Positions 33,857-54,995 of a stretch of 64,000 nt of DNA are shown piece after piece. Positions within the stretch are counted from its first letter, which is position 1, and the number at the start of each line of letters is the position of its first letter. A program made the translations under genes and the position numbers. The notes under the pieces are model-generated. The model was not told the origin of the DNA. It saw nothing but the letters and a program-made list of their open reading frames with translations, and ran no database searches. Origin of the DNA: a virus; the IMG/VR virus record IMGVR_UViG_3300046804_006785, one strand, 5' to 3'.

Positions 33857-33914
33857 TTAATATTGATAACTTATGTGTAAAATTATATACATCTAAAATA
33901 GTTTTATAAAATGC

Positions 33915-33943
33915 TTGACATTAATTTTAAATGCCGTTATATT
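33915..33943 (+). promoter_or_regulatory. sigma70-type promoter
   Basis: TTGACA-17-TATATT. Confidence 0.8.
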
Positions 33944-33975
33944 ATTAGTGTGGTTAAAACATAGGTAAACCGGAC

Positions 33976-44965: not shown

Positions 44966-45049
44966 TTTTGTTTACTCAATAATTGACATATTTTAAGCAA
45001 CTTATTTATTTTATGTTATAATCTAAGTTACTTGTACTAGATCCACACA

Positions 45050-45088
45050 AACCCCATGACTAAAACACTTCAAGTCATGGGGTTTTTT
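45050..45088. terminator. Hairpin terminator
   Basis: AACCCCATGACT/AGTCATGGGGTT plus T run. Confidence 0.7.
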
Positions 45089-45089
45089 A

Positions 45090-45374
45090 TTATGCTACTT
45101 TTGCTTTACGGAGTTTTGATACTCCTGCATAAGCAGCATCTTTTATTTGTGGCATTGCTTCGGTGTTAAATTCTACTGCTTCTTGTTGAGTTTCTGCCTC
45201 AACCAAGACGTATTCACAGAAGTTTAAGGATTTACAATCTTCATCCCAGTCGAAATCGCCAACTTGGTTACTGGTCATACTTTTAGCAATCTTTATTGCT
45301 GACTGCTTAGTAGTTATACTGGGGTGAGATTCTTGATCAATGTAGGCATTGTAATAAATTTTATAGGTTGCCAT
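45090..45374 (-). CDS. Hypothetical protein
   Basis: 94-aa ORF behind promoter. Confidence 0.6.
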   Translation of the reverse strand: MATYKIYYNAYIDQESHPSITTKQSAIKIAKSMTSNQVGDFDWDEDCKSLNFCEYVLVEAETQQEAVEFNTEAMPQIKDAAYAGVSKLRKAKVA

Positions 45375-45403
45375 GTGTTATTTTACCTTTGTTTGTCTAT
45401 ATA

Positions 45404-45432
45404 AATATAACACCATTTTATTCTAATGTCAA
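45404..45432 (-). promoter_or_regulatory. sigma70-type promoter
   Basis: TTGACA-17-TATATT on minus strand. Confidence 0.75.
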
Positions 45433-45502
45433 GCAAAATAATCACACATTTTACAAGCTGCTTAGAATATGCCATACTGCTAGATAAAACAGGACTACAG
45501 CA

Positions 45503-46318
45503 ATGGCAACTAAAATCAAACCCTCATTCAAGATTGAACCTATACCTAATCATGCTGGTTTTCAAGCATTGGGAACAGTTAAAGGTAAGTTTACTTACTT
45601 AGAAGACCAAACTGGGATAAACAAGGGTAGAGGTGTTCTAAAAACTAAATACGGTGAGTTCCCTGCTTTTGTGCATAGTAAATGTAGGCAAGTAGTTAAA
45701 AATTTATACTCAAAATCTCACTATTTTTTAGTATGGTTTAGAAACAGATTGGCTACTGAAGATAATACTGCCACTGTCCAATTTACAATTGTGGGATGCG
45801 GTCTAGAAGGTGTGGATAATTGCTTTTTGGTTACAGGTGCGTTAGTTGGTGGTAAAAAAGAAGAGAAGGTTTACCAGTTTATTTTAAAGCGGAACTTTAA
45901 CAGTCCAATACCAACTAAGCATAAGGTCAATTTTGCTACTCGTAGTTTTAAGGTTAAAGTATCAGCTACGGATGACTTATGGGAACTATATAAGCATAAA
46001 TTAGCTGCTTTAGTTTGTAAGCTTGAAGATGGTCAGTTGCAAGTAGTCAGTCATCAATTAATTAGTGAAGAAGTGCCGGATAAAAGTCTGCTAAAAAGTC
46101 TTAAAAAGAAAATCAAAAAGAAGAAAAATAAGAAAGTAATCACAGTCGAACCAACGGGGGATAAGCCACTGGTTAAGAAAAAAATAACTGTTGGTATAGT
46201 AACTAGTGATCCGGTGGGAACTGCTAAAAAAGTATTACCCAGCATTAAGCCTACTGAACCCCTAACGACTGAACCACCTAAGAAAAAAGTAAAAGTATTG
46301 GAACTTCCAAGAAAATAA
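45503..46318 (+). CDS. Hypothetical basic protein
   Basis: 271 aa, Lys-rich tail. Confidence 0.65.
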   Translation: MATKIKPSFKIEPIPNHAGFQALGTVKGKFTYLEDQTGINKGRGVLKTKYGEFPAFVHSKCRQVVKNLYSKSHYFLVWFRNRLATEDNTATVQFTIVGCGLEGVDNCFLVTGALVGGKKEEKVYQFILKRNFNSPIPTKHKVNFATRSFKVKVSATDDLWELYKHKLAALVCKLEDGQLQVVSHQLISEEVPDKSLLKSLKKKIKKKKNKKVITVEPTGDKPLVKKKITVGIVTSDPVGTAKKVLPSIKPTEPLTTEPPKKKVKVLELPRK

Positions 46319-46324
46319 GTGTAA

Positions 46325-46359
46325 AAAAAGCCGCTAAATGCAACAACTTAGCGGCTTTT
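46325..46359. terminator. Bidirectional terminator
   Basis: AAAAAGCCGCTAA/TTAGCGGCTTTTT. Confidence 0.8.
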
Positions 46360-46361
46360 AA

Positions 46362-46664
46362 TTAATCTATTTTTTTGGTTGTATAGAACAGCAAAAAATC
46401 CATAATGCTATTAACATCTCCGCCGTGTACACCTTGTTGTACTCCAAGTTCTTTACTTAGTCGGTTAAGAACCGCGATTACTGTTCCGTCCGAAATGTCT
46501 AGATTTTTTGCTATGGACTTATAATTACAACCTTGATAAGTCAAATTAATAATCTCATAAGTCTGTTTGTTGTTATTCACAATGCTATTAAGAATATCAC
46601 GGATATCCTGTCTGGTTTTTCCCCTAAAGGATTCCATTGTAGCCAATTCTTCCATTGTTATCAT
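46362..46664 (-). CDS. LuxR/sigma4-like HTH protein
   Basis: G.NYKSIAKNLDISDGTV. Confidence 0.65.
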   Translation of the reverse strand: MITMEELATMESFRGKTRQDIRDILNSIVNNNKQTYEIINLTYQGCNYKSIAKNLDISDGTVIAVLNRLSKELGVQQGVHGGDVNSIMDFLLFYTTKKID

Positions 46665-46721
46665 TAATTTTACTCCTAATTTTGAACCTCAGAACTTTTA
46701 TAAGTCTGAGGTTTTTTTGAT

Positions 46722-47000
46722 TTATTTCTTGGAAACTAACTCTTTAAACGCTTTACCTGGCTTAAACTTAGGAGTTACCTTAGCAGGAATACTAATCTTT
46801 TCTTTAGTTTTTGGGTTGATACCTTCTCTTTCTTTTAGTTCCACAGAACAAAAAGATCCAAAGCCTACAAAATCTACGGACTCACCTGCGGCTACCTGTT
46901 CCTGGATAATCTCTAAAGCTGCATCAATGGCTTCTTTAGCTTGATTCTTTTTGAGTTTTGTCCTTTCAAATATAGCTGATACAAATTCTGTTTTGTTCAT
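46722..47000 (-). CDS. hup: HU histone-like DNA-binding protein
   Basis: MNKTEF, GFGSF, REGINPKT, PKFKPGKAFKE. Confidence 0.95.
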   Translation of the reverse strand: MNKTEFVSAIFERTKLKKNQAKEAIDAALEIIQEQVAAGESVDFVGFGSFCSVELKEREGINPKTKEKISIPAKVTPKFKPGKAFKELVSKK

Positions 47001-47149
47001 TGTTCTGCATAATAACGACTGTTTTCTAGCATACTACAGAAAACAATAAAATATCTCATTCAAATAAAAATAGTTTATGCTACTATTTTATATGAATGAG
47101 ATATCGGTTGGGGCGATGATGTGGATCATCGCTTTTATTTTGTTTATTT

Positions 47150-47770
47150 TTATAACCCTGCGTTAATTTCTCCCCAATTCCCAGTAGGAAGTAAGGCATT
47201 TTTGGCTTCTTGATCAAGCCAATATTGGTGTGAGTTTCTCAATCTTTTTAAGTTTTGTGTTAAAGCTTCAAACACACTGTCACTCTTAGGACAATGAGTT
47301 TTTGATCTACCAGTCATGTTGTTTGTAATAATAAAGGTACGATTAATACAATGTATCTCACACAGAAAATAATCTGTATGATATACCTCAATGAGCATGG
47401 TCTGTTGACCACCCCAAATCTCACAGATGATCGCTAAACCTTTAAACTTTGCAGTTAGTCCTAAGTCACGGATCATACCACCGATATCTGTAGTGGGGAT
47501 ACCTACTAGATATTCTGTTTTACTTAAAGTATCATATTCAATATGATCACGAACTGCTTTAGCATGATAGCAGTCCATATTATTTTTACCCGCAGCACAG
47601 TTACAGCAATCCATCAAAGAATCATACTGGTAGAGATTACCAGTTTCGCCAACTACTTCATAGTAGTGTTTGCTGACTTGGTTTAATGATTGAACTTTGC
47701 GAGGTTGTTTTTTGAGAACTGGACGTGCTAGACGTGCTATTGTGGTAGTCATAACTTTTTGCATTGCCAC
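47150..47770 (-). CDS. SWIM-type zinc-finger protein
   Basis: CNC.......CYH motif. Confidence 0.6.
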   Translation of the reverse strand: MAMQKVMTTTIARLARPVLKKQPRKVQSLNQVSKHYYEVVGETGNLYQYDSLMDCCNCAAGKNNMDCYHAKAVRDHIEYDTLSKTEYLVGIPTTDIGGMIRDLGLTAKFKGLAIICEIWGGQQTMLIEVYHTDYFLCEIHCINRTFIITNNMTGRSKTHCPKSDSVFEALTQNLKRLRNSHQYWLDQEAKNALLPTGNWGEINAGL

Positions 47771-47808
47771 CGGGAATTAAGACGTTCGGTGGCTTTCCTT
47801 ATATCACT

Positions 47809-47837
47809 AATATAACAGCCCTTAAAATTAATGTCAA
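47809..47837 (-). promoter_or_regulatory. sigma70-type promoter
   Basis: TTGACA-17-TATATT on minus strand. Confidence 0.75.
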
Positions 47838-48021
47838 GTGTTTTATGAAAAATAATTTAAAATAATTTTAGGGATAATGTAAAACTAGATAACTGCGTAA
47901 TAGATCAAGGTTTTATAAGAAAAATGCCGAAAACCCTTGAAGATGTGACTTCCTGAGTCAGTCACATCTGTGCTTTAGACAAGGGATGAATGCTAGTTGC
48001 AGGATTTATCCTGCATTGACG

Positions 48022-48426
48022 TTAATCGCGTTGCTGCTCAATATATTTCTTAACCGTTTCTGTGCAAATATTTCCAGCAGTGCTTACAAAATAGCTTGGT
48101 GTCCACAACGTAGGTATTTTTAAAAGTTCGGGAAATTCTTTCCTAAGATGATGAGAAGCCCTGCCTTTAATTTTCCTCATAATGCTAGACGGATCATCGG
48201 TTGGCTTCACGTTTAAAAACAGATGGACATGATCCGGCATAATCTCCATAGCAATAATCTTCCACCTATTCTCTACAACCAACTCGCAAATAATTTGCTG
48301 CAACCTCTCTGCAACAGCACCTACCAGGACTTTTTTCCGCCGCTTAGGAATAAAGACAAAGTGGTAATTCAGAAGCGATACCGCATTGCTTTCGTGTCTG
48401 TACTCATCTGGAGAAAACTTCGCCAT
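48022..48426 (-). CDS. tnpA: IS200/IS605 Y1 transposase
   Basis: YHFVFIPKRR, PDHVHL (HUH), KKYIEQQ catalytic Tyr. Confidence 0.95.
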   Translation of the reverse strand: MAKFSPDEYRHESNAVSLLNYHFVFIPKRRKKVLVGAVAERLQQIICELVVENRWKIIAMEIMPDHVHLFLNVKPTDDPSSIMRKIKGRASHHLRKEFPELLKIPTLWTPSYFVSTAGNICTETVKKYIEQQRD

Positions 48427-48507
48427 AATTTAAAAAGATTTGCTTGCTATCTGTATATAGCTATTGTATAATAGTTACAGGTCGTAAACAACAAATCAAT
48501 AAAACCC

Positions 48508-49713
48508 ATGATAGTTCTAGAGTATAAAGTTAAGGGAAAACAGCATCAGTACAATGCGATAGACGATGCAATTCGTACTACCCAATTCGTTCGCAATAAA
48601 GCGATTAGATATTGGATGGATGCACCACGTGAGTTAAAAATTGATAAGTTTGCTCTTAATAAATACTCTACGGAACTTCGGAAGGAATTTCCTTTTACTG
48701 CTGAATTAAACTCAATGGCTGTGCAATCAGCAGCAGAAAGAGCTTGGTTCGCTATATCCAGGTTTTACGACAACTGTAAATCTAATAAATCCGGGAAAAA
48801 GGGATTCCCCCGTTTTCAAAAAGATTGTCGTTCTGTTGAATATAAAACATCTGGATGGAAGTTACACAAAACTAAACGACGCATCACTTTTACCGATAAA
48901 AAAGGCATTGGTGAATTAAAACTTTTAGGTAAATGGGATATTCAATCCTACAACCTTAAAGATATTAAACGAGTGCGTTTAATCCGTCGTGCGGATGGAT
49001 ATTATGCACAGTTTTGTGTGGGTATTGATGTTGTAGATATTCAATCAAAAACAGGTAAAGAAATCGGGTTAGATGTTGGTATAGAATCTTTTTACACTGA
49101 TTCTAACGGGCATCATGAACCTAACCCTAAATTTTACCAGAAAGCTGAAAAATCAATCAAACATTCTCAAAGACAAATTTACAAAAAGCAGAAAGGCTCT
49201 AGTGGTAGGAAAAAAGCTAGAAAACTTTATGCTAAAAAACACTTAAAAGTAAGTAGGCAACGGAATGAACACGCTAAGAGAATAGCGCGTAACGTATGCA
49301 AGTCTAACGACTTAGTAGCCTACGAAGATTTAAGGGTTGTAAATATGGTAAAAAATCATTGTCTAGCAAAATCAATTAGTGATGCTAGTTGGTATTTGTT
49401 CAGGCAATGGATTGAATATTTTGCGGTTAAATTTGACAAAGTTGCTATAGCTGTAGCACCATATTACACTTCTCAAAAGTGTTCTAGTTGTGGCGTAATT
49501 GTCAAAAAATCTCTATCAACTCGTACCCATAAATGTAGTTGTGGATGCGAGTTGCATAGAGATACAAATGCAGCAATTAATATTTTAAATCTTGTAAAAG
49601 CTAGGGGAGGGCATCCCCAAAGTAACGCTACAGGAGTTGAAGCCTCTACTCTACTTGGTGCAAACCTGGTTGAGCAAGTTTTGACTATGAATGTAGAATC
49701 CCCGCGTCTTTAG
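48508..49713 (+). CDS. tnpB: RNA-guided endonuclease TnpB
   Basis: RuvC GLDVG / YEDL / RDTNAA intact; CSSCG...CSCG zinc finger. Confidence 0.95.
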   Translation: MIVLEYKVKGKQHQYNAIDDAIRTTQFVRNKAIRYWMDAPRELKIDKFALNKYSTELRKEFPFTAELNSMAVQSAAERAWFAISRFYDNCKSNKSGKKGFPRFQKDCRSVEYKTSGWKLHKTKRRITFTDKKGIGELKLLGKWDIQSYNLKDIKRVRLIRRADGYYAQFCVGIDVVDIQSKTGKEIGLDVGIESFYTDSNGHHEPNPKFYQKAEKSIKHSQRQIYKKQKGSSGRKKARKLYAKKHLKVSRQRNEHAKRIARNVCKSNDLVAYEDLRVVNMVKNHCLAKSISDASWYLFRQWIEYFAVKFDKVAIAVAPYYTSQKCSSCGVIVKKSLSTRTHKCSCGCELHRDTNAAINILNLVKARGGHPQSNATGVEASTLLGANLVEQVLTMNVESPRL

Positions 49714-49748
49714 ACCGGGGAGTGTCAATCCAAACTTTAGGCTTGACG
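49581..49748 (+). ncRNA. TnpB reRNA (omegaRNA) copy 1 with guide TCCAAACTTTAGGCTTGACG
   Basis: Overlaps tnpB 3' end; terminal hairpin CCCCG...CGGGG then GTCAA at 49728; 5' boundary approximate. Confidence 0.8.
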
Positions 49749-49870
49749 TGAACCCTGATTTTAGTCCCGTCACAATTAACAAAGAACTCATGCCACTTGT
49801 TCTTGTCAGTGGATGATTTGGGTAGTTCTGTGATTTTAGCTGTTACTTCTAGTTTTCCTGCGGTGATCAT
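49729..49870 (-). pseudogene. 5' fragment of a cyanobacterial plasmid/phage gene (often labelled FinO-like) cut by IS right end
   Basis: MITAGKLEVTAKITELP...VKPKVW then reads into IS end; the 3' half is not present beyond the left end. Confidence 0.65.
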
Positions 49871-49887
49871 TTTTACTCCTATTTGTA

Positions 49888-50118
49888 TTAATTTACTATT
49901 GGTTGCCTGCCAAATTGCAAACCCACAAATTTCCATCCATCTTCAGTTTTGTCCCAAATCCTGTACCACCTCTGAGAAGGGTGAACTTCTCCAACATCGG
50001 ACATATTGTGGAGTATTCGCACTCTCGACCTAATCAGCTTACTTTTCATGCACTTGCTAGTGGCGAAATAGTACATATCGCTTGCTATTTGTTCCGGCGC
50101 AACTGTTGGTTTTTGCAT
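49888..50118 (-). CDS. Hypothetical protein (IS cargo)
   Basis: 76-aa ORF. Confidence 0.5.
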   Translation of the reverse strand: MQKPTVAPEQIASDMYYFATSKCMKSKLIRSRVRILHNMSDVGEVHPSQRWYRIWDKTEDGWKFVGLQFGRQPIVN

Positions 50119-50440
50119 TTAATTTTCTTCTGCAATCACTGATTATAGAATCCATCCCCTTAACGCCCATCTCCTTTTTTCTGATAAACTTCGCTAATTC
50201 TAGTTCATCCGAGTCAATGCCCATCTGCCAAGCAATGCGCCTGACTTGTCCTATCTGATCAATAATCTTGTCTATGTCTTTCTTATTATCTTTCTTGAGC
50301 TTCCCAAGAAAAAAGCATCCGTCAAATTGTTCCATTAAATCACAGAATGCCTTGATAATTTCAGGCTTTGATCTATTGATTTCGATGACATCAATTTTGT
50401 CTTGAAAGTTTAACGATAATTGCATTGGGAACAACCTCAT
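50057..50440 (-). CDS. Hypothetical protein (IS cargo)
   Basis: 127-aa ORF, start may be MQLSLNF. Confidence 0.55.
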   Translation of the reverse strand: MRLFPMQLSLNFQDKIDVIEINRSKPEIIKAFCDLMEQFDGCFFLGKLKKDNKKDIDKIIDQIGQVRRIAWQMGIDSDELELAKFIRKKEMGVKGMDSIISDCRRKLNAKTNSCAGTNSKRYVLFRH

Positions 50441-50443
50441 TTA

Positions 50444-50635
50444 TATTTTAAATCTTGCAAAAGCTCTGGAGTTGAGCGAAGTCGAAACTAGGGGAGGGCA
50501 TCCCCAAAGTAACGCTACAGGAGTTGAAGCCTCTACTCTACTTGGTGCAAACCTGGTTGAGCAAGTTTTGACTATGAATGTAGAATCCCCGCGTCTTTAG
50601 ACCGGGGAGTGTCAAGAACCTTGATTAACTAGTCT
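50444..50635 (+). ncRNA. Stand-alone TnpB reRNA copy 2 with guide GAACCTTGATTAACTAGTCT
   Basis: 50488-50615 identical to 49601-49728 (128 nt); short upstream homology interrupted by a 22-24 nt insert. Confidence 0.8.
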
Positions 50636-50858
50636 ATCCTAACACACTTTTAAGCCATTGCCAGTAAGATAACTTTCTAGTTTGTTCTAATTCCTGTTCT
50701 GCTTGTGCTATGTCTTCAGCCGTTGGACATCTAAAAAAATCTATGTCTGCCACTGGTTCAGGATGTAAATCAACTACTTCAGCCTCATATATTATAGGCT
50801 GTGTTGATTGTTGTTTATATTGTGTGATCGCGTCTTGTTTTCCTGTTAATAGTTTCAT
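50634..50858 (-). CDS. Hypothetical protein
   Basis: 74-aa ORF, amphipathic C-terminus. Confidence 0.55.
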   Translation of the reverse strand: MKLLTGKQDAITQYKQQSTQPIIYEAEVVDLHPEPVADIDFFRCPTAEDIAQAEQELEQTRKLSYWQWLKSVLG

Positions 50859-50942
50859 AGGTCTTAGTTTGTTTAAGGTACGTTAATACTAGCTTAGTTT
50901 TCTCAAAAAATAAAGTCTTAACATTTCTTAATAATTTTCTGT

Positions 50943-50970
50943 TTGACATTATTTTATTTTGTGTTAGATT
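50943..50970 (+). promoter_or_regulatory. sigma70-type promoter with no downstream ORF
   Basis: TTGACA-16-TAGATT with extended -10 TG. Confidence 0.55.
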
Positions 50971-51554: not shown

Positions 51555-54500
51555 CTAGCGAATAGGACACGCACCTGTAGCACATCCTTGATCTAATTCC
51601 TGTTCTTCAAATCCTTTCTCAATCTCAGATAATTTAGTGATAATATCTGTTTGAGAAAGTACAGGTAATTGTGATTTCAAAGCTTCATAAGTTTCCTTGT
51701 CACACGGTTCTAGGGGCATCAAAGGATAAGCTGCTTTACCACCTTCAACCGGATCAAATCTAGGTAAAAAAGCAATTCCAATAATGTCATCCCAATTATC
51801 ATTCACCCAATTAGCCGCTGTTTTGTATTCATCTGGCGCAACAGTTACAGTTACTGAAATGTTATGGCCTCTATCAGCATAATTAGTTTGGGCTAATTTA
51901 TATCGTTCTAATTGTTCTGTAACTGGCTCATCAATTGCGCGGGTTTTAGCATTAGTCTTGATGGGAAATGTGAATACCCAAGTATTACAATCATCACCAA
52001 ATAAATCTTCACCTTGACCGTTTTCTGGTAGCGGTGTAAGTCCTAAATTTAGCAATACTTGGGCTAAAGGATCTGATTTACTAAATCTAACCCGACGTAA
52101 ATAATAAGGAGCATAAGCGCGATGGATGCCACTAGAAACGGTTGGTAGTAGGCTGATTGTTCCTTCTGGTTTCATTAAGCAGACTCTAGCACTTCTGTTA
52201 ATTCCTAAGTAGTCGTGGTAAGCGTCCGCTGCTTTTACTGCTACTTGTTTACACCATTGAAAGAAAAGTTTTTGTTGCCCATAATCCCAACCAAGTAGAT
52301 CAAAGGCATCCATAATACCAGTTTGAGATACTCCAAGTAAGCGATCGCGCTTTTGCATTTTGTCCCATTCTGGATGCCATTGTTTAGCTAGTGTGATCCG
52401 AGTTCCTACTCTGGTAATTAGTTCAATAACTTTTTTCCCTAATTCCCAATCATATTCCCACTTACTAGACTTTTTATCAAAGTATATGCAAGCTCTAACG
52501 TTCTTAGTCGTTAAATTGCATGATTGTTTGTCATCTAAAGCCGCTTCAGCGCATGGATTCGTGCCTTTAACGGGTGATGTTGCTAATTTCTGACTATTTC
52601 CAATAATCCAAAAACCTGGGTCACCTTGAGTTTCTAAACATTCAAATGTCTTATTAATTGCATCTACTCCAGGATGATCATATTCGCCTGTAGAGTTATT
52701 AGACATTGTTCTTAGATCCTTAACTCTTGCTTTAGCTGGATCGCTAAATAGTCCTACTTTTGCAGTCTTAAAGGATTCATCAGAGCTATCGCCAAGAGCC
52801 AGTTCTGCAGTGTTATGTACTAAATAACCAGTATCCGCAATAAACTCATTTACTGAATCCACACTGATATCGTAAGTGTAATCATTTCTTACTGCGTGAT
52901 TGATACTTAACACTTCTACAGGGACTCTATAAACCTCAATGCCTGTAATTTTCTCAAGTCTAGCTACAGTCATCTGTTTACATTTAGCATCCCACTGACT
53001 GCCAAACTTAACTTTGTCAGAAGTGACCATACTGGACGGGAAACCAAAATCATTTTGTGATCTTGCAGATTTTCTATTGTCTCTAAACTTAAGTGAAAAT
53101 GATGCTACTTGTCTTTCAAATCTATCAATAAACATTTCACCTTTCAGGTTGAGTATGTGAAGTGCTTTCCAATTGCCTTTAGCATCTCTTTTTTTATTTA
53201 AAGTAGTTAGGATACCTAAACTTGATAAGACTACTTGCAACTGTTTCAAAAATTCAGGATAAACACTTGTGGCAACAGTAATAGGTCTGTTTTTAACTGA
53301 ACCGTCGGCATCAAATACGCCTGCCGTGTATGCTGCTCTATAGGAATCAAGACCCTGAAGAATTAGATCGGGGATAACTAAAGTTTGATTAGATAACTTA
53401 AACTGACTTAAAAAAGTAGCTAGTTGTTTTGACTTAATTACTAGCTTATAGCAGTTATCGTTCTCTTGGGGTTCACGTAATTTTGTATGAACACCAAACT
53501 GCTTAATAATACTGTCAATTTTTTCTACTACTTGTGGTAAATCGGGAGCTATTGCAAAGCTGATATTTCCTTCTGAAGATGTTAGTCTAACATAACCATT
53601 TCCATGTAAGAAACCTAGCAAATAAGCGATATCATCACTCATATCCGGTATGGTTATTGCTTTGCAGGTTGTACTATGTTCAGGATAAATGTAGTTAAAT
53701 TCTGGAAGTTTAGTTTCTGTACCTGGAATAGTGTTTTTAACAAATACCATCCTGTCACCAATTTGTATATCCTTAGCTTGCTTCCAGATATAGTTACCTT
53801 GAGTGTCAGAAATGATCGCTATTTTGTGTTTATCTGTACATTCAAAGATACCTGCTTGCGTTGTAATTTGGGATATTGGTTGACTACCTTGATAAACAAA
53901 GTCAGTCACTTGATGATAGCCTTTTGATGTGGCTACTATGTCACCCACTTTGACTTTCTCAATTGGTACTAAACCGTTTTGAAGGTGAACTAATGTACCT
54001 TTAGGTAAGCAGCGACGTACACCTCCTGCCATTACGTTATAACCTAAAGCATTTATGATATCTAAGCAGTCAACAGAGGCTAAAACACCTGAACATCTTT
54101 GAAGAACATATGAAATATTATTAAACATTTCTAATAATGTTCTATGTCCACTAGCACGTCCGCCAAAAGTTTTTATAGGCGTTCCCTGTGGACGTATCGG
54201 ATCATAATTAATGTAGATTTTTTCTACATTTTTATTAGTTAAGGCTTTTAAGAATATTCTCAAAGCATTACACCAATCTTCTTTACTATCCCCAATTTGT
54301 AATCTAACTATCTTGTGGTTATCATCTAGGTGTCTAACAAACTCATTATCAGATTTAATTATTTCTGAAGGTTCTACAAAATCGGTGTAGGTTGTTAAGA
54401 ACTGCGGACTACTTTCTGAATCTGTGATATTAACAAAAGTACCATCAAGTCTCTTTTGATAGTTGTAGTCTTCATGAATTACATGGACTTTTGCATTAAA

Positions 54501-54995
54501 TTCTGGTAGTTGAGAAATATATTTTTGCTCAACACTAAAACCAGTACCCGCACCAATTAACAACCAATAGAAAATCTCACTAAACGCGCTTAAACTGTCT
54601 ACAGTTTTAAATGTACAGTTCCAATTACTGGATGAATCTTTTTCCGTCTGTGGTGATCCTGCTGTCCATAGACTTCTACCCGCAGGAAAACCCTGCAAGT
54701 TAAACATCATTTCAAATAGTGCTTTAGCCTCTGTACACTTATCTTCTAATGGTGTTACAGTGTCTAAGCTTAGGCTATACTCAATATTTCTTAATATTGT
54801 CTCTTGCCAAATTTCCCGTCGTTTTAGTTCATTAATGAAGCGACTGTAAGTTCTTATGTAGATGATTGCACCTAACTCACCAAAGGGTGGTTTCCTATCT
54901 ATATATTTTTTATAGAAATCCCAGTTAATATACTGGGGATTAACTAAGTCAAAGTAAGCACGATACTGATTTAGAGAAAATTTAACTACTGGCAT
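51555..54995 (-). CDS. nrdJ: Class II (B12-dependent) ribonucleotide reductase, intein-containing
   Basis: YIRTYSR, PAGRSLW, NC, GTNPCAE, KPEGTISL, C-terminal CATGACPIR. Confidence 0.9.
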   Translation of the reverse strand: MPVVKFSLNQYRAYFDLVNPQYINWDFYKKYIDRKPPFGELGAIIYIRTYSRFINELKRREIWQETILRNIEYSLSLDTVTPLEDKCTEAKALFEMMFNLQGFPAGRSLWTAGSPQTEKDSSSNWNCTFKTVDSLSAFSEIFYWLLIGAGTGFSVEQKYISQLPEFNAKVHVIHEDYNYQKRLDGTFVNITDSESSPQFLTTYTDFVEPSEIIKSDNEFVRHLDDNHKIVRLQIGDSKEDWCNALRIFLKALTNKNVEKIYINYDPIRPQGTPIKTFGGRASGHRTLLEMFNNISYVLQRCSGVLASVDCLDIINALGYNVMAGGVRRCLPKGTLVHLQNGLVPIEKVKVGDIVATSKGYHQVTDFVYQGSQPISQITTQAGIFECTDKHKIAIISDTQGNYIWKQAKDIQIGDRMVFVKNTIPGTETKLPEFNYIYPEHSTTCKAITIPDMSDDIAYLLGFLHGNGYVRLTSSEGNISFAIAPDLPQVVEKIDSIIKQFGVHTKLREPQENDNCYKLVIKSKQLATFLSQFKLSNQTLVIPDLILQGLDSYRAAYTAGVFDADGSVKNRPITVATSVYPEFLKQLQVVLSSLGILTTLNKKRDAKGNWKALHILNLKGEMFIDRFERQVASFSLKFRDNRKSARSQNDFGFPSSMVTSDKVKFGSQWDAKCKQMTVARLEKITGIEVYRVPVEVLSINHAVRNDYTYDISVDSVNEFIADTGYLVHNTAELALGDSSDESFKTAKVGLFSDPAKARVKDLRTMSNNSTGEYDHPGVDAINKTFECLETQGDPGFWIIGNSQKLATSPVKGTNPCAEAALDDKQSCNLTTKNVRACIYFDKKSSKWEYDWELGKKVIELITRVGTRITLAKQWHPEWDKMQKRDRLLGVSQTGIMDAFDLLGWDYGQQKLFFQWCKQVAVKAADAYHDYLGINRSARVCLMKPEGTISLLPTVSSGIHRAYAPYYLRRVRFSKSDPLAQVLLNLGLTPLPENGQGEDLFGDDCNTWVFTFPIKTNAKTRAIDEPVTEQLERYKLAQTNYADRGHNISVTVTVAPDEYKTAANWVNDNWDDIIGIAFLPRFDPVEGGKAAYPLMPLEPCDKETYEALKSQLPVLSQTDIITKLSEIEKGFEEQELDQGCATGACPIR
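52812..54011 (-). mobile_element. Intein (400 aa) with LAGLIDADG homing endonuclease in nrdJ
   Basis: GGVRR|CLPKGT...YDISV...GYLVHN|TAEL; LLGFLHGNG and AGVFDADG motifs. Confidence 0.92.

What the first reader, a model, noticed from the sequence alone, without database searches (positions are those of the whole stretch)
47901..50635. Dual-guide TnpB: one nuclease, two identical reRNA scaffolds with different guides bracketing captured cargo
Seen: the 128-nt right end (49601-49728) is repeated exactly at 50488-50615, each ending in TCAA, giving guide 1 TCCAAACTTTAGGCTTGACG and guide 2 GAACCTTGATTAACTAGTCT. Joining the left flank (ATCAAGGTTTTAT, ending 47916) to the flank of the second right end restores a perfect hairpin ATCAAGGTT-TTATG-AACCTTGAT, so the outer end is the true insertion boundary and guide 2 matches the empty phage allele next to a TTTAT/TTAT TAM. 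Guide 1 comes from a gene truncated at ...KPKVW whose 3' half is absent; putting TTTAT in front of guide 1 gives an in-frame W-N-K continuation, consistent with the same TAM at a different insertion site. TnpB RuvC D-E-D and TnpA HUH/Tyr look intact. Known: TnpB uses the right-end RNA plus flank as guide to cut element-free alleles. Inference: the element carried in ~0.7 kb of flank from another replicon, so the phage encodes a two-guide, array-like TnpB system able to home into IS-free sibling phages and to cut an intact gene in another plasmid or phage.
Basis: partly seen in the sequence, partly recalled or inferred. Interest (0 to 1): 0.8.

Follow-up and report, generated by a model that had tools for sequence, protein, structure and literature searches.

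The report
Phage TnpB transposon with two guides
A jumping gene (TnpA plus the RNA-guided cutter TnpB) in a lake cyanophage ends in two identical guide-RNA scaffolds that bracket 0.7 kb of DNA from another phage. Each scaffold points at a site that exists, next to the right recognition motif, in related phages lacking the element, so it could cut two kinds of rival, but no cutting has been shown.

Summary
An intact IS200/IS605 element (tnpA, tnpB) starts at 47917. Its 128-nt right end (49601-49728) recurs exactly at 50488-50615.

Evidence that the outer right end is the true boundary:
- Joining 47916 to 50616 restores a 9-bp hairpin (P about 3e-4).
- An IS-free sibling phage contig (L023) has TTTAT directly before guide 2, followed by 351 nt at 100% identity.

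Evidence that the 0.71-kb insert is foreign:
- L023 has other genes at this locus.
- The insert's first 155 nt are 100% identical to an intact small gene in three IMG/VR phage contigs, where TTTAT directly precedes guide 1.

New points:
- The second right end is not a copy of the first. It carries a 24-nt cyanobacterial mini-repeat also found in a Cuspidothrix copy, so two IS variants contributed.
- The guide-RNA fold has strong covariation and lies wholly inside the repeat.
- The IS is 98% identical to a Cuspidothrix chromosomal copy, and the motif before left ends is TTAT in 8 of 9 cases.

Not resolved: whether the composite moved as one unit or arose by recombination. Use of both guides is inferred, not shown. 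"Array-like" overstates it: this is an IS plus a stand-alone guide RNA in cis. This scan has noted similar layouts in other phages.

The parts
47904..47916 (+). Left flank: left arm of the target hairpin (47904-47912) and the TAM TTTAT (47912-47916; core TTAT 47913-47916)
   Evidence: Sequence. Hairpin test P about 3e-4. TTAT precedes 8 of 9 left ends in Cuspidothrix and the copies in runs X3 and X4.
47917..48021 (+). Left end (LE) of the IS, with subterminal hairpins
   Evidence: Boundary set by alignment to the 98% identical full copy L147 and to other LE copies.
48022..48426 (-). tnpA, Y1 HUH transposase, 134 aa
   Evidence: Pfam Y1_Tnp E 3e-39. HVH and C-terminal Tyr read from the translation.
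48508..49713 (+). tnpB, 401 aa, RuvC D-E-D and zinc-finger motifs present
   Evidence: Pfam OrfB_IS605 2.9e-21 and Cas12f1-like_TNB 7e-20. ISDra2 TnpB 8bf8/8exa/8h1j E 4e-34.
49601..49728 (+). Right end 1, the omegaRNA scaffold copy 1, ending in TCAA
   Evidence: Exact 128-nt repeat. Consensus fold has 23 of 40 pairs with compensatory changes in six relatives.
49729..49748 (+). Guide 1 (flank of RE1)
   Evidence: Exact match directly after TTTAT in the intact gene of L004, L005, L006 and in a contig of run X3.
49729..50438 (-). Foreign insert. It holds a 5' 47-codon fragment of a small phage gene (49870-49729, called FinO-like in CL131), a 76-aa ORF (50118-49888) and a 127-aa ORF (50440-50057).
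   Evidence: tblastn to CL131 gp055. 155 nt are 100% identical to L004-L006. 49876-50448 is 88-94% identical to L014-L022 in other contexts. The whole block lies on one contig of run X4. It is absent at this locus in L023.
50439..50487 (+). tnpB 3' remnant (about 21-27 nt) joined to the insert directly after a TTTAT, then a 24-nt cyanobacterial mini-repeat insertion (about 50464-50489, placement ambiguous by a CT)
   Evidence: Alignments. Junction compared with nine relatives. The mini-repeat occurs in more than 120 genome loci and in the Cuspidothrix tnpB 3' remnant L046.
50488..50615 (+). Right end 2, a stand-alone omegaRNA scaffold copy 2, ending in TCAA
   Evidence: Exact repeat. It holds the entire covariation-supported fold.
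50616..50635 (+). Guide 2 (flank of RE2). 50617-50625 is the right arm of the target hairpin.
   Evidence: L023 has TTTAT directly before this sequence, and 50616-50966 is 100% identical.

Best explanation
Positions 47917-50615 are a composite IS200/IS605-family element (IS605 group) in an intergenic hairpin of a freshwater cyanophage.

Structure:
- It consists of an intact autonomous IS (LE, tnpA, tnpB, RE1), recently acquired from an Aphanizomenonaceae-type host.
- This is followed by 0.71 kb of DNA that was once the right-hand flank of such an IS in a small gene of another phage lineage.
- Last comes a stand-alone second right end (RE2) that descends from a slightly different IS variant.
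- LE and RE2 are the ends in register with the phage target, TTTAT in a hairpin loop.

How it most likely works (inferred):
- TnpB loads omegaRNA from both scaffolds, which are identical and complete.
- The RE2 guide matches the element-free site of sibling phages. It serves retention after excision of the whole composite, and homing.
- The RE1 guide matches the joint left if only the inner IS excises (TTTAT at 47912-47916 plus 49729 onward). It also matches the intact allele of the captured gene in rival phages.
- The phage has homology on only one side of that rival-phage site, so the result there would be interference rather than homing.

How the composite formed is open. TnpA may have used LE plus a distal RE2 in a donor genome (about 50%). 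Alternatively, two IS copies in co-infecting genomes recombined or switched template (about 35%).
For: Shown:
- Exact 128-nt repeat, with distinct sequence upstream of copy 2.
- Intact TnpA and TnpB.
- Structured scaffold with 23 of 40 covarying pairs, wholly inside the repeat.
- TAM TTAT at 8 of 9 left ends in Cuspidothrix, in this window, and in runs X3 and X4.
- A 9-bp hairpin restored only by pairing the LE flank with the RE2 flank.
- The IS-free sibling L023 has TTTAT plus guide 2, 100% identity over 351 nt, and other genes where the insert sits.
- The intact allele has TTTAT plus guide 1 in L004-L006, 100% over 155 nt, while other shared genes of those phages are 75-90% identical.
- The insert block is contiguous in other genomes.
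- The IS is 98% identical to a Cuspidothrix copy.
- The unitig graph and depths of the source run fit the assembled order.

From the literature:
- Stand-alone omegaRNAs work in trans with compatible effectors (Altae-Tran 2021, as summarised in PMC10691335).
- TnpB cuts donor joints and drives retention (PMC10055086).
- TnpB processes its own mRNA into omegaRNA (PMC10278001, listed).
- A TnpB gene drive and anti-competitor effect has been shown in plasmids (10.1101/2025.02.20.638934).
Against: - No RNA, cleavage or transposition data exist for this element.
- RE2 has no tnpB mRNA upstream. It would need read-through across the insert, where a weak terminator-like site lies at 50094-50117, or a weak junction promoter that did not pass the scan.
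- Shorter RE fragments of 34-72 nt are common in related phage contigs and in Cuspidothrix. Solo right ends therefore arise as decay products without any need for function.
- The composite was found in one sample only.
- The left side of the target in L023 differs, so the exact empty hairpin allele has not been seen.
Confidence: 0.6

Rival explanations
1. Rearrangement scar. The structure is real, but RE2 is an inert leftover of an older IS copy. Only the guide attached to the tnpB transcript (guide 1) is ever made, and the layout has no dual-guide function.
For: - Solo and partial right ends of many lengths are frequent in related phage contigs (L007, L009, L011, L012) and in Cuspidothrix, as expected from decay.
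- RE2 lacks an evident promoter.
Against: - RE2 keeps the complete covariation-supported scaffold with 0 of 128 differences from the active copy.
- RE2 sits 0.8 kb from an intact tnpB on the same strand.
- Stand-alone omegaRNAs are reported to function in trans (PMC10691335).
- A 128-nt direct repeat 0.76 kb apart should be lost quickly by recombination, yet the insert has the same depth as the flanks.
Confidence: 0.33
2. Assembly artefact. The 128-nt repeat was mis-resolved, and the insert belongs to another genome or molecule.
For: - The repeat is longer than the k-mer, so short-read graphs cannot by themselves order the pieces.
- No second sample holds the composite.
Against: - The insert unitig begins in the last 30 nt of the repeat and ends, through the unique RE2-upstream sequence, in its first 30 nt.
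- The repeat has about double depth, and IS, insert and flank have 17.0, 17.4 and 17.2x.
- The only other way through the graph is an 887-bp circle.
Confidence: 0.04
3. Native genes. 49729-50438 is ordinary phage DNA of this locus, and two independent IS insertions or remnants simply flank it.
For: The 76-aa and 127-aa genes are phage-like small genes on the same strand as their neighbours.
Against: - The closest IS-free relative, L023, has two different genes and a terminator there.
- None of nine contigs carrying the block shares any other gene with the window.
- The gene at the insert's left edge lacks its 3' half anywhere in the window.
- The LE flank pairs with the RE2 flank, not with the RE1 flank.
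Confidence: 0.03

Closest known systems
IS608 / ISDra2-type IS200/IS605 elements (TnpA Y1 transposase, TnpB and right-end omegaRNA/reRNA)
   Same: - Gene content and divergent tnpA/tnpB layout.
- No inverted terminal repeats.
- Insertion 3' of a short motif (TTAT here, TTAC in IS608, TTGAT in ISDra2; the last two are recalled from knowledge).
- A right end ending in TCAA.
- A structured scaffold overlapping the tnpB 3' end.
- A guide that equals the right flank.
   Different: - Two right ends in direct order, with 0.71 kb of foreign DNA and two intact opposite-strand ORFs between them.
- The element lies in a phage genome.
Stand-alone omegaRNAs of OMEGA systems (Altae-Tran et al. 2021, as summarised in PMC10691335) and PATE-like elements (PMC10055086)
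   Same: A complete scaffold with its own guide and no adjacent effector ORF, in the same genome as a compatible TnpB.
   Different: - It sits in cis, 0.76 kb downstream of the effector, inside the same mobile unit rather than dispersed.
- It has no left end of its own, so it is not a PATE.
- Its natural target in an IS-free sibling has been identified.
TnpB-driven gene drive and anti-competitor effect of IS605 in multicopy plasmids (Mears et al., bioRxiv 10.1101/2025.02.20.638934)
   Same: The guide is reprogrammed by insertion into a multicopy replicon, so that IS-free copies or competitors become targets.
   Different: - The replicon here is a lytic-type cyanophage.
- There are two guides, one aimed at a gene of a different phage lineage.
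- Nothing here has been tested experimentally.
Proposed origin of type V CRISPR arrays by serial duplication of omegaRNA segments (PMC10691335); TranC intermediates (PDB 9jfo, matched)
   Same: Two copies of one scaffold with different guides next to one TnpB-family nuclease.
   Different: - The copies come from two IS variants, not from a local duplication.
- The spacing is 0.76 kb, not a spacer length.
- The full 128-nt scaffold is repeated, not a short repeat.
Flank capture by IS91/ISCR-type rolling-circle elements through use of a distal end (recalled from knowledge, not checked here)
   Same: Adjacent DNA becomes part of the mobile unit when a second, more distant end is used.
   Different: A different transposase family and mechanism. 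Here, use of the distal end is inferred only from the target hairpin and TAM.

Membership tests
IS200/IS605 family, IS605 group | Y1 HUH transposase TnpA | tested here: met
   Pfam Y1_Tnp E 3e-39 over 117 of 121 profile positions. HVH and a C-terminal Tyr are in the translation.
IS200/IS605 family, IS605 group | TnpB with a RuvC-like D-E-D site and zinc finger | tested here: met
   Pfam OrfB_IS605 and Cas12f1-like_TNB. phmmer to ISDra2 TnpB structures gives E 4e-34, and the three acidic motifs are conserved in the printed alignment.
IS200/IS605 family, IS605 group | Insertion 3' of a fixed short motif next to LE, without target duplication or inverted terminal repeats | tested here: met
   - TTAT precedes 8 of 9 LE copies in Cuspidothrix, this copy, and the copies in runs X3 and X4.
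- The intact alleles read TTTAT then the right flank.
- No terminal inverted repeat was found.
IS200/IS605 family, IS605 group | Structured right-end RNA (omegaRNA) overlapping the tnpB 3' end | tested here: met
   RNAalifold on six relatives gives 40 pairs, 23 with compensatory changes. No Rfam family matches.
IS200/IS605 family, IS605 group | RNA-guided, TAM-dependent DNA cleavage by TnpB, and excision or integration by TnpA | not testable with these tools
   Needs interference and excision assays.
Stand-alone omegaRNA (OMEGA systems) | Complete scaffold plus guide without an adjacent effector gene, with a compatible effector in the same genome | tested here: met
   - RE2 keeps all 128 nt of the scaffold.
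- By tblastn, RE2 matches tnpB residues 354-401, which includes the 128-nt scaffold; only about 21-27 nt of tnpB sequence survive upstream of it.
- An intact tnpB lies 0.8 kb upstream.
Stand-alone omegaRNA (OMEGA systems) | The RNA is expressed and used by the effector | not testable with these tools
   The RNA runs found hold only host IS relatives, not this phage.
CRISPR-like array | Short direct repeats separated by spacer-length unique sequences | tested here: not met
   There are two 128-nt copies 887 nt apart, with two ORFs between them.
Composite transposon moved as one unit | The outer ends are in register with a single target site | tested here: inconclusive
   - For: the hairpin is restored across LE flank and RE2 flank (P about 3e-4), and TTTAT precedes guide 2 in L023.
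- Open: the same end state follows from recombination into a resident simple IS.
- No second copy of the composite was found.

The most novel reading that the evidence does not exclude
A phage-borne TnpB uses two guide RNAs from one mobile unit, both processed from transcripts of the composite. One guide drives the element into element-free sibling phages. The other destroys a conserved small gene of a rival phage lineage during co-infection. This would be a natural two-target, transposon-encoded weapon whose second guide was acquired by capturing flank DNA, and so a living intermediate between a single fixed-guide TnpB and a multi-guide system.
Probability: 0.3. Interest if true: 0.7.

Novelty: new variant of a known kind. 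Interest (0 to 1): 0.55.

Why it matters
TnpB is the ancestor of Cas12, and how a one-guide transposon nuclease came to use several guides is an open question.

Here a single mobile unit carries two complete scaffolds. For both guides the natural, TAM-flanked targets were found in element-free relatives. That makes the functional questions directly testable with defined sequences: are both RNAs made, does each cut, and does the unit home or exclude rivals.

It also documents 0.7 kb of foreign DNA, with two intact ORFs, lying between the ends of an IS200/IS605 element. That family is described as rarely carrying cargo (PMC10691335). Finally, it adds a concrete case to the idea that TnpB elements act as gene drives and competition tools in multicopy replicons such as phages.

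Tried and rejected
- Exact empty-site 23-mer and guide 2 in IMG/VR: no hits. Guide 2 in JGI metagenomes gave the single contig L023.
- Insert/RE2 junction 22-mer and the RE2-specific 32-mer in IMG/VR: none. No donor or second composite was found.
- The search for related loci with the 127-aa ORF in IMG/VR: none.
- The gene-length pattern of L017/L018 looked syntenic with the window (98, 75, 115, 73, 214 aa). blastn and tblastx showed that only the two insert genes are shared, so this was a coincidence.
- Rfam: no family for the right end.
- Pfam and PHROGs: no family for the 76-aa, 127-aa, 74-aa, 206-aa and 98-aa ORFs. The 'FinO-like' name of CL131 gp055 is not backed by Pfam for it or for the 101-aa L004 homologue.
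- Expression: RNA contigs of run X15 cover only IS parts, with other flanks, so they come from host copies. Nothing can be said about this phage's RNAs.
- Insert DNA in the Cuspidothrix genome: none. In 201 genomes of its family there were only weak 70-78% matches to the first 155 nt.
- The window's own assembly is not held. The rest of the phage genome could not be searched for an intact copy of the truncated gene. The unbranched insert unitig in the source run argues against an identical intact allele there.
- I first read the identity pattern (0 of 128 differences against 2 of 27) as gene conversion. If the junction lies after TTTAT, the tnpB-derived part differs from RE1 by one base only, so no conversion is needed.
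- The idea that RE2 is a TnpA-mobilised mini-element cut at a pseudo-TAM: the L012 solo end does not follow a TTAT, so I dropped it as a general rule.
Full report
**What is there.**
- Positions 47917-49728 are a complete IS200/IS605-family element.
- It has a left end, tnpA on the minus strand (48022-48426; Pfam Y1_Tnp, E 3e-39) and tnpB on the plus strand (48508-49713).
- tnpB matches Pfam OrfB_IS605 and Cas12f1-like_TNB, and the ISDra2 TnpB structures 8bf8, 8exa and 8h1j at E 4e-34.
- The last 128 nt (49601-49728) recur without a mismatch at 50488-50615. Both copies end in TCAA and are followed by different sequence.
- An RNAalifold consensus over six relatives with 56-98% similar elements gives 40 pairs, 23 of them with compensatory changes. 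All lie inside the 128-nt repeat. Both copies therefore hold the complete guide-RNA scaffold. Rfam has no family for it.

**The second copy is not a duplicate of the first.**
- Upstream of the repeat, copy 2 keeps a further 21-27 nt of tnpB 3' sequence.
- It also carries a 24-nt in-frame insertion (about 50464-50489) that copy 1 lacks.
- A 20-mer of that insertion occurs in more than 120 places in cyanobacterial genomes, usually as one arm of a small hairpin.
- In Cuspidothrix issatschenkoi CHARLIE-1 it sits at the same position in a tnpB 3' remnant that is 92.5% identical to the window's tnpB (L046).
- The same genome holds one full copy of the IS at 98% identity over all 1812 nt, plus dozens of left-end-only and right-end-only fragments.
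- The phage's IS is therefore a recent acquisition from a host of this kind, and RE2 descends from a sister variant.

**Which ends belong to the phage target.**
- Eight of nine left ends in Cuspidothrix follow TTAT. So do the window's copy (TTTAT, 47912-47916) and the copies in two unrelated metagenome runs.
- Joining 47916 to 50616 restores a perfect 9-bp stem with TTAT in the loop. Random joins of window sequence reach 9 bp at a rate of 3e-4, and the join to the RE1 flank gives 4 bp.
- The one metagenome contig with guide 2, L023, is a close IS-free relative. It matches 42385-47870 at 92.8% and 50616-50966 at 100%, and TTTAT lies directly before guide 2.
- Between these two stretches L023 has two other small genes and a terminator, not the insert.
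- LE and RE2 are thus in register with the phage. The 0.71 kb between RE1 and RE2 is not native at this locus.
- One caveat: left of TTTAT, L023 differs from the window, so the exact empty hairpin allele has not been seen.

**Where the insert comes from.**
- Its left edge is the first 47 codons of a small minus-strand gene. This fragment is 77% identical to residues 1-47 of CL131 gp055, which is annotated FinO-like. Pfam does not support that name.
- Three IMG/VR contigs (L004-L006) carry the intact 101-aa gene.
- The 155 nt shared with the window are 100% identical, whereas other genes shared with these phages are 75-90% identical.
- A contig in run X3 shows the same intact allele.
- The rest of the insert (a 76-aa and a 127-aa ORF) occurs at 88-94% identity in nine other contigs in three unrelated contexts. 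In L021, L022 and a contig of run X4 it is contiguous with the start of the small gene.
- None of these contigs shares anything else with the window.
- The insert is absent from Cuspidothrix. In 201 related genomes only weak matches to its first 155 nt were found.
- The insert is therefore the former right flank of an IS that sat at a TTTAT inside that small gene in another phage-like genome.

**The inner junction.**
- All nine relatives read CATTTAT, then TATTT and an upstream gene. The window reads CATTTAT, then the tnpB 3' sequence.
- The junction thus lies directly after a TAM-like TTTAT, within a 5-of-6 microhomology to the tnpB sequence.
- One route: an IS variant inserted at that TTTAT in the donor, lost its left part by a microhomology deletion, and left a solo RE2. 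A second IS then entered the small gene 0.7 kb away, and TnpA moved LE through RE2 as one unit into this phage.
- The other route: a simple IS resident in this phage recombined, or served as a repair template, with an IS copy in the other phage. One crossover lay inside the IS and one at the microhomology.
- I could not tell these apart. No donor and no second composite were found.

**Assembly.**
- In the probable source run the unitigs are IS (17x), repeat (39.5x), insert (17.4x) and right flank (17.2x). The insert unitig begins and ends inside the repeat and includes the unique RE2-upstream sequence.
- The assembled order is the only linear path through this graph. This is consistent with the assembly but is not independent proof.
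- The insert unitig is unbranched at 49729. This argues that no identical intact copy of the small gene is present in that sample, so there is no self-targeting.

**How it most likely works (inferred).**
- By analogy with ISDra2 and the Geobacillus elements, TnpB bound to a right-end RNA cuts DNA that has the TAM followed by the flank sequence (PMC10055086).
- Within the element itself each guide is preceded by the scaffold, not by a TAM. The phage is therefore protected from its own guides.
- Guide 2 matches the site left by excision of the whole composite, and also the site in siblings such as L023. There, homology on both sides would allow copying of the element.
- Guide 1 matches the joint left if only the inner IS excises. 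It also matches the intact small gene of L004-type phages. The window phage has homology on only one side of that site, so the expected outcome is damage to the rival rather than homing.
- RE1 can be cut out of the tnpB mRNA by TnpB itself (PMC10278001, listed).
- RE2 needs read-through across the insert or a weak promoter at the junction. The scans found neither a convincing promoter nor a strong terminator.
- The RNA runs found hold only host copies of the IS.

**Comparison with what is known.**
- Stand-alone guide RNAs that work in trans, and elements consisting only of transposon ends, are described (PMC10691335, PMC10055086).
- A TnpB gene drive with an anti-competitor effect has been shown for plasmids (10.1101/2025.02.20.638934).
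- IS200/IS605 elements are said to carry cargo only rarely (PMC10691335).
- Notes from this scan report solo or spare scaffolds in several other phages. One soil phage has a leftover right end 74 nt behind a complete element (e1-5851064). I did not re-test those notes.
- New here is the combination: a stand-alone scaffold in cis within the same mobile unit, 0.7 kb of captured foreign DNA between the ends, and identified natural TAM-flanked targets for both guides.
- It is not an array.
- I rate it a new variant of a known kind with moderate interest. It would rise if both guides prove active.

Noticed in passing
window 50464-50489; L024-L143: The 24-nt insertion in RE2 is a copy of a small repeat present in more than 120 loci of Nostocales and other cyanobacteria, mostly as one arm of a hairpin. 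It resembles the very small dispersed repeats described for Nostoc; that comparison is recalled from memory and was not checked.
   Followed up: partly
G002 (Cuspidothrix issatschenkoi CHARLIE-1), L147-L158: One full copy of this IS at 98% identity, plus dozens of left-end-only and right-end-only fragments. This points to the likely host group and to frequent decay or mini-elements.
   Followed up: partly
window 47809-47837 (minus strand); also near 33871-33944; L023 5406-5453 and 5928-5975: A near-consensus promoter box (TTGACA, 17 nt, TATATT) ahead of the 206-aa gene. It is repeated elsewhere in the window and twice in the sibling contig, where it heads different small genes.
   Followed up: no
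window 51555-54995 (minus strand): A class II ribonucleotide reductase interrupted by an intein with a LAGLIDADG homing endonuclease (Pfam RNR_Alpha, RNR-II_ins_dom, Intein_splicing, LAGLIDADG_3). This is another selfish element 1 kb from the IS.
   Followed up: partly
L012 3173-3334 and L013 (IMG/VR contigs): The same 23-nt right flank follows two different right-end bodies. L012 has a 166-nt solo end of the window's type, and L013 has a full element with a 56% identical TnpB. One target site was therefore used by two related elements, or the ends were exchanged.
   Followed up: partly
L004 8345-9121 (also L005, L006): The phage contigs that carry the intact target gene encode their own distant TnpB-like protein (30% identity) about 4 kb away.
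   Followed up: no
window 50616-50966 versus 42385-47870 against L023: The 351 nt directly right of the element are 100% identical to the sibling contig, while the left side is 92.8% identical. This may be mosaicism, or co-conversion of the flank during spread of the element.
   Followed up: no
window 46722-47000 (minus strand): A phage-encoded HU-type DNA-binding protein (Pfam Bac_DNA_binding, E 8e-31).
   Followed up: no
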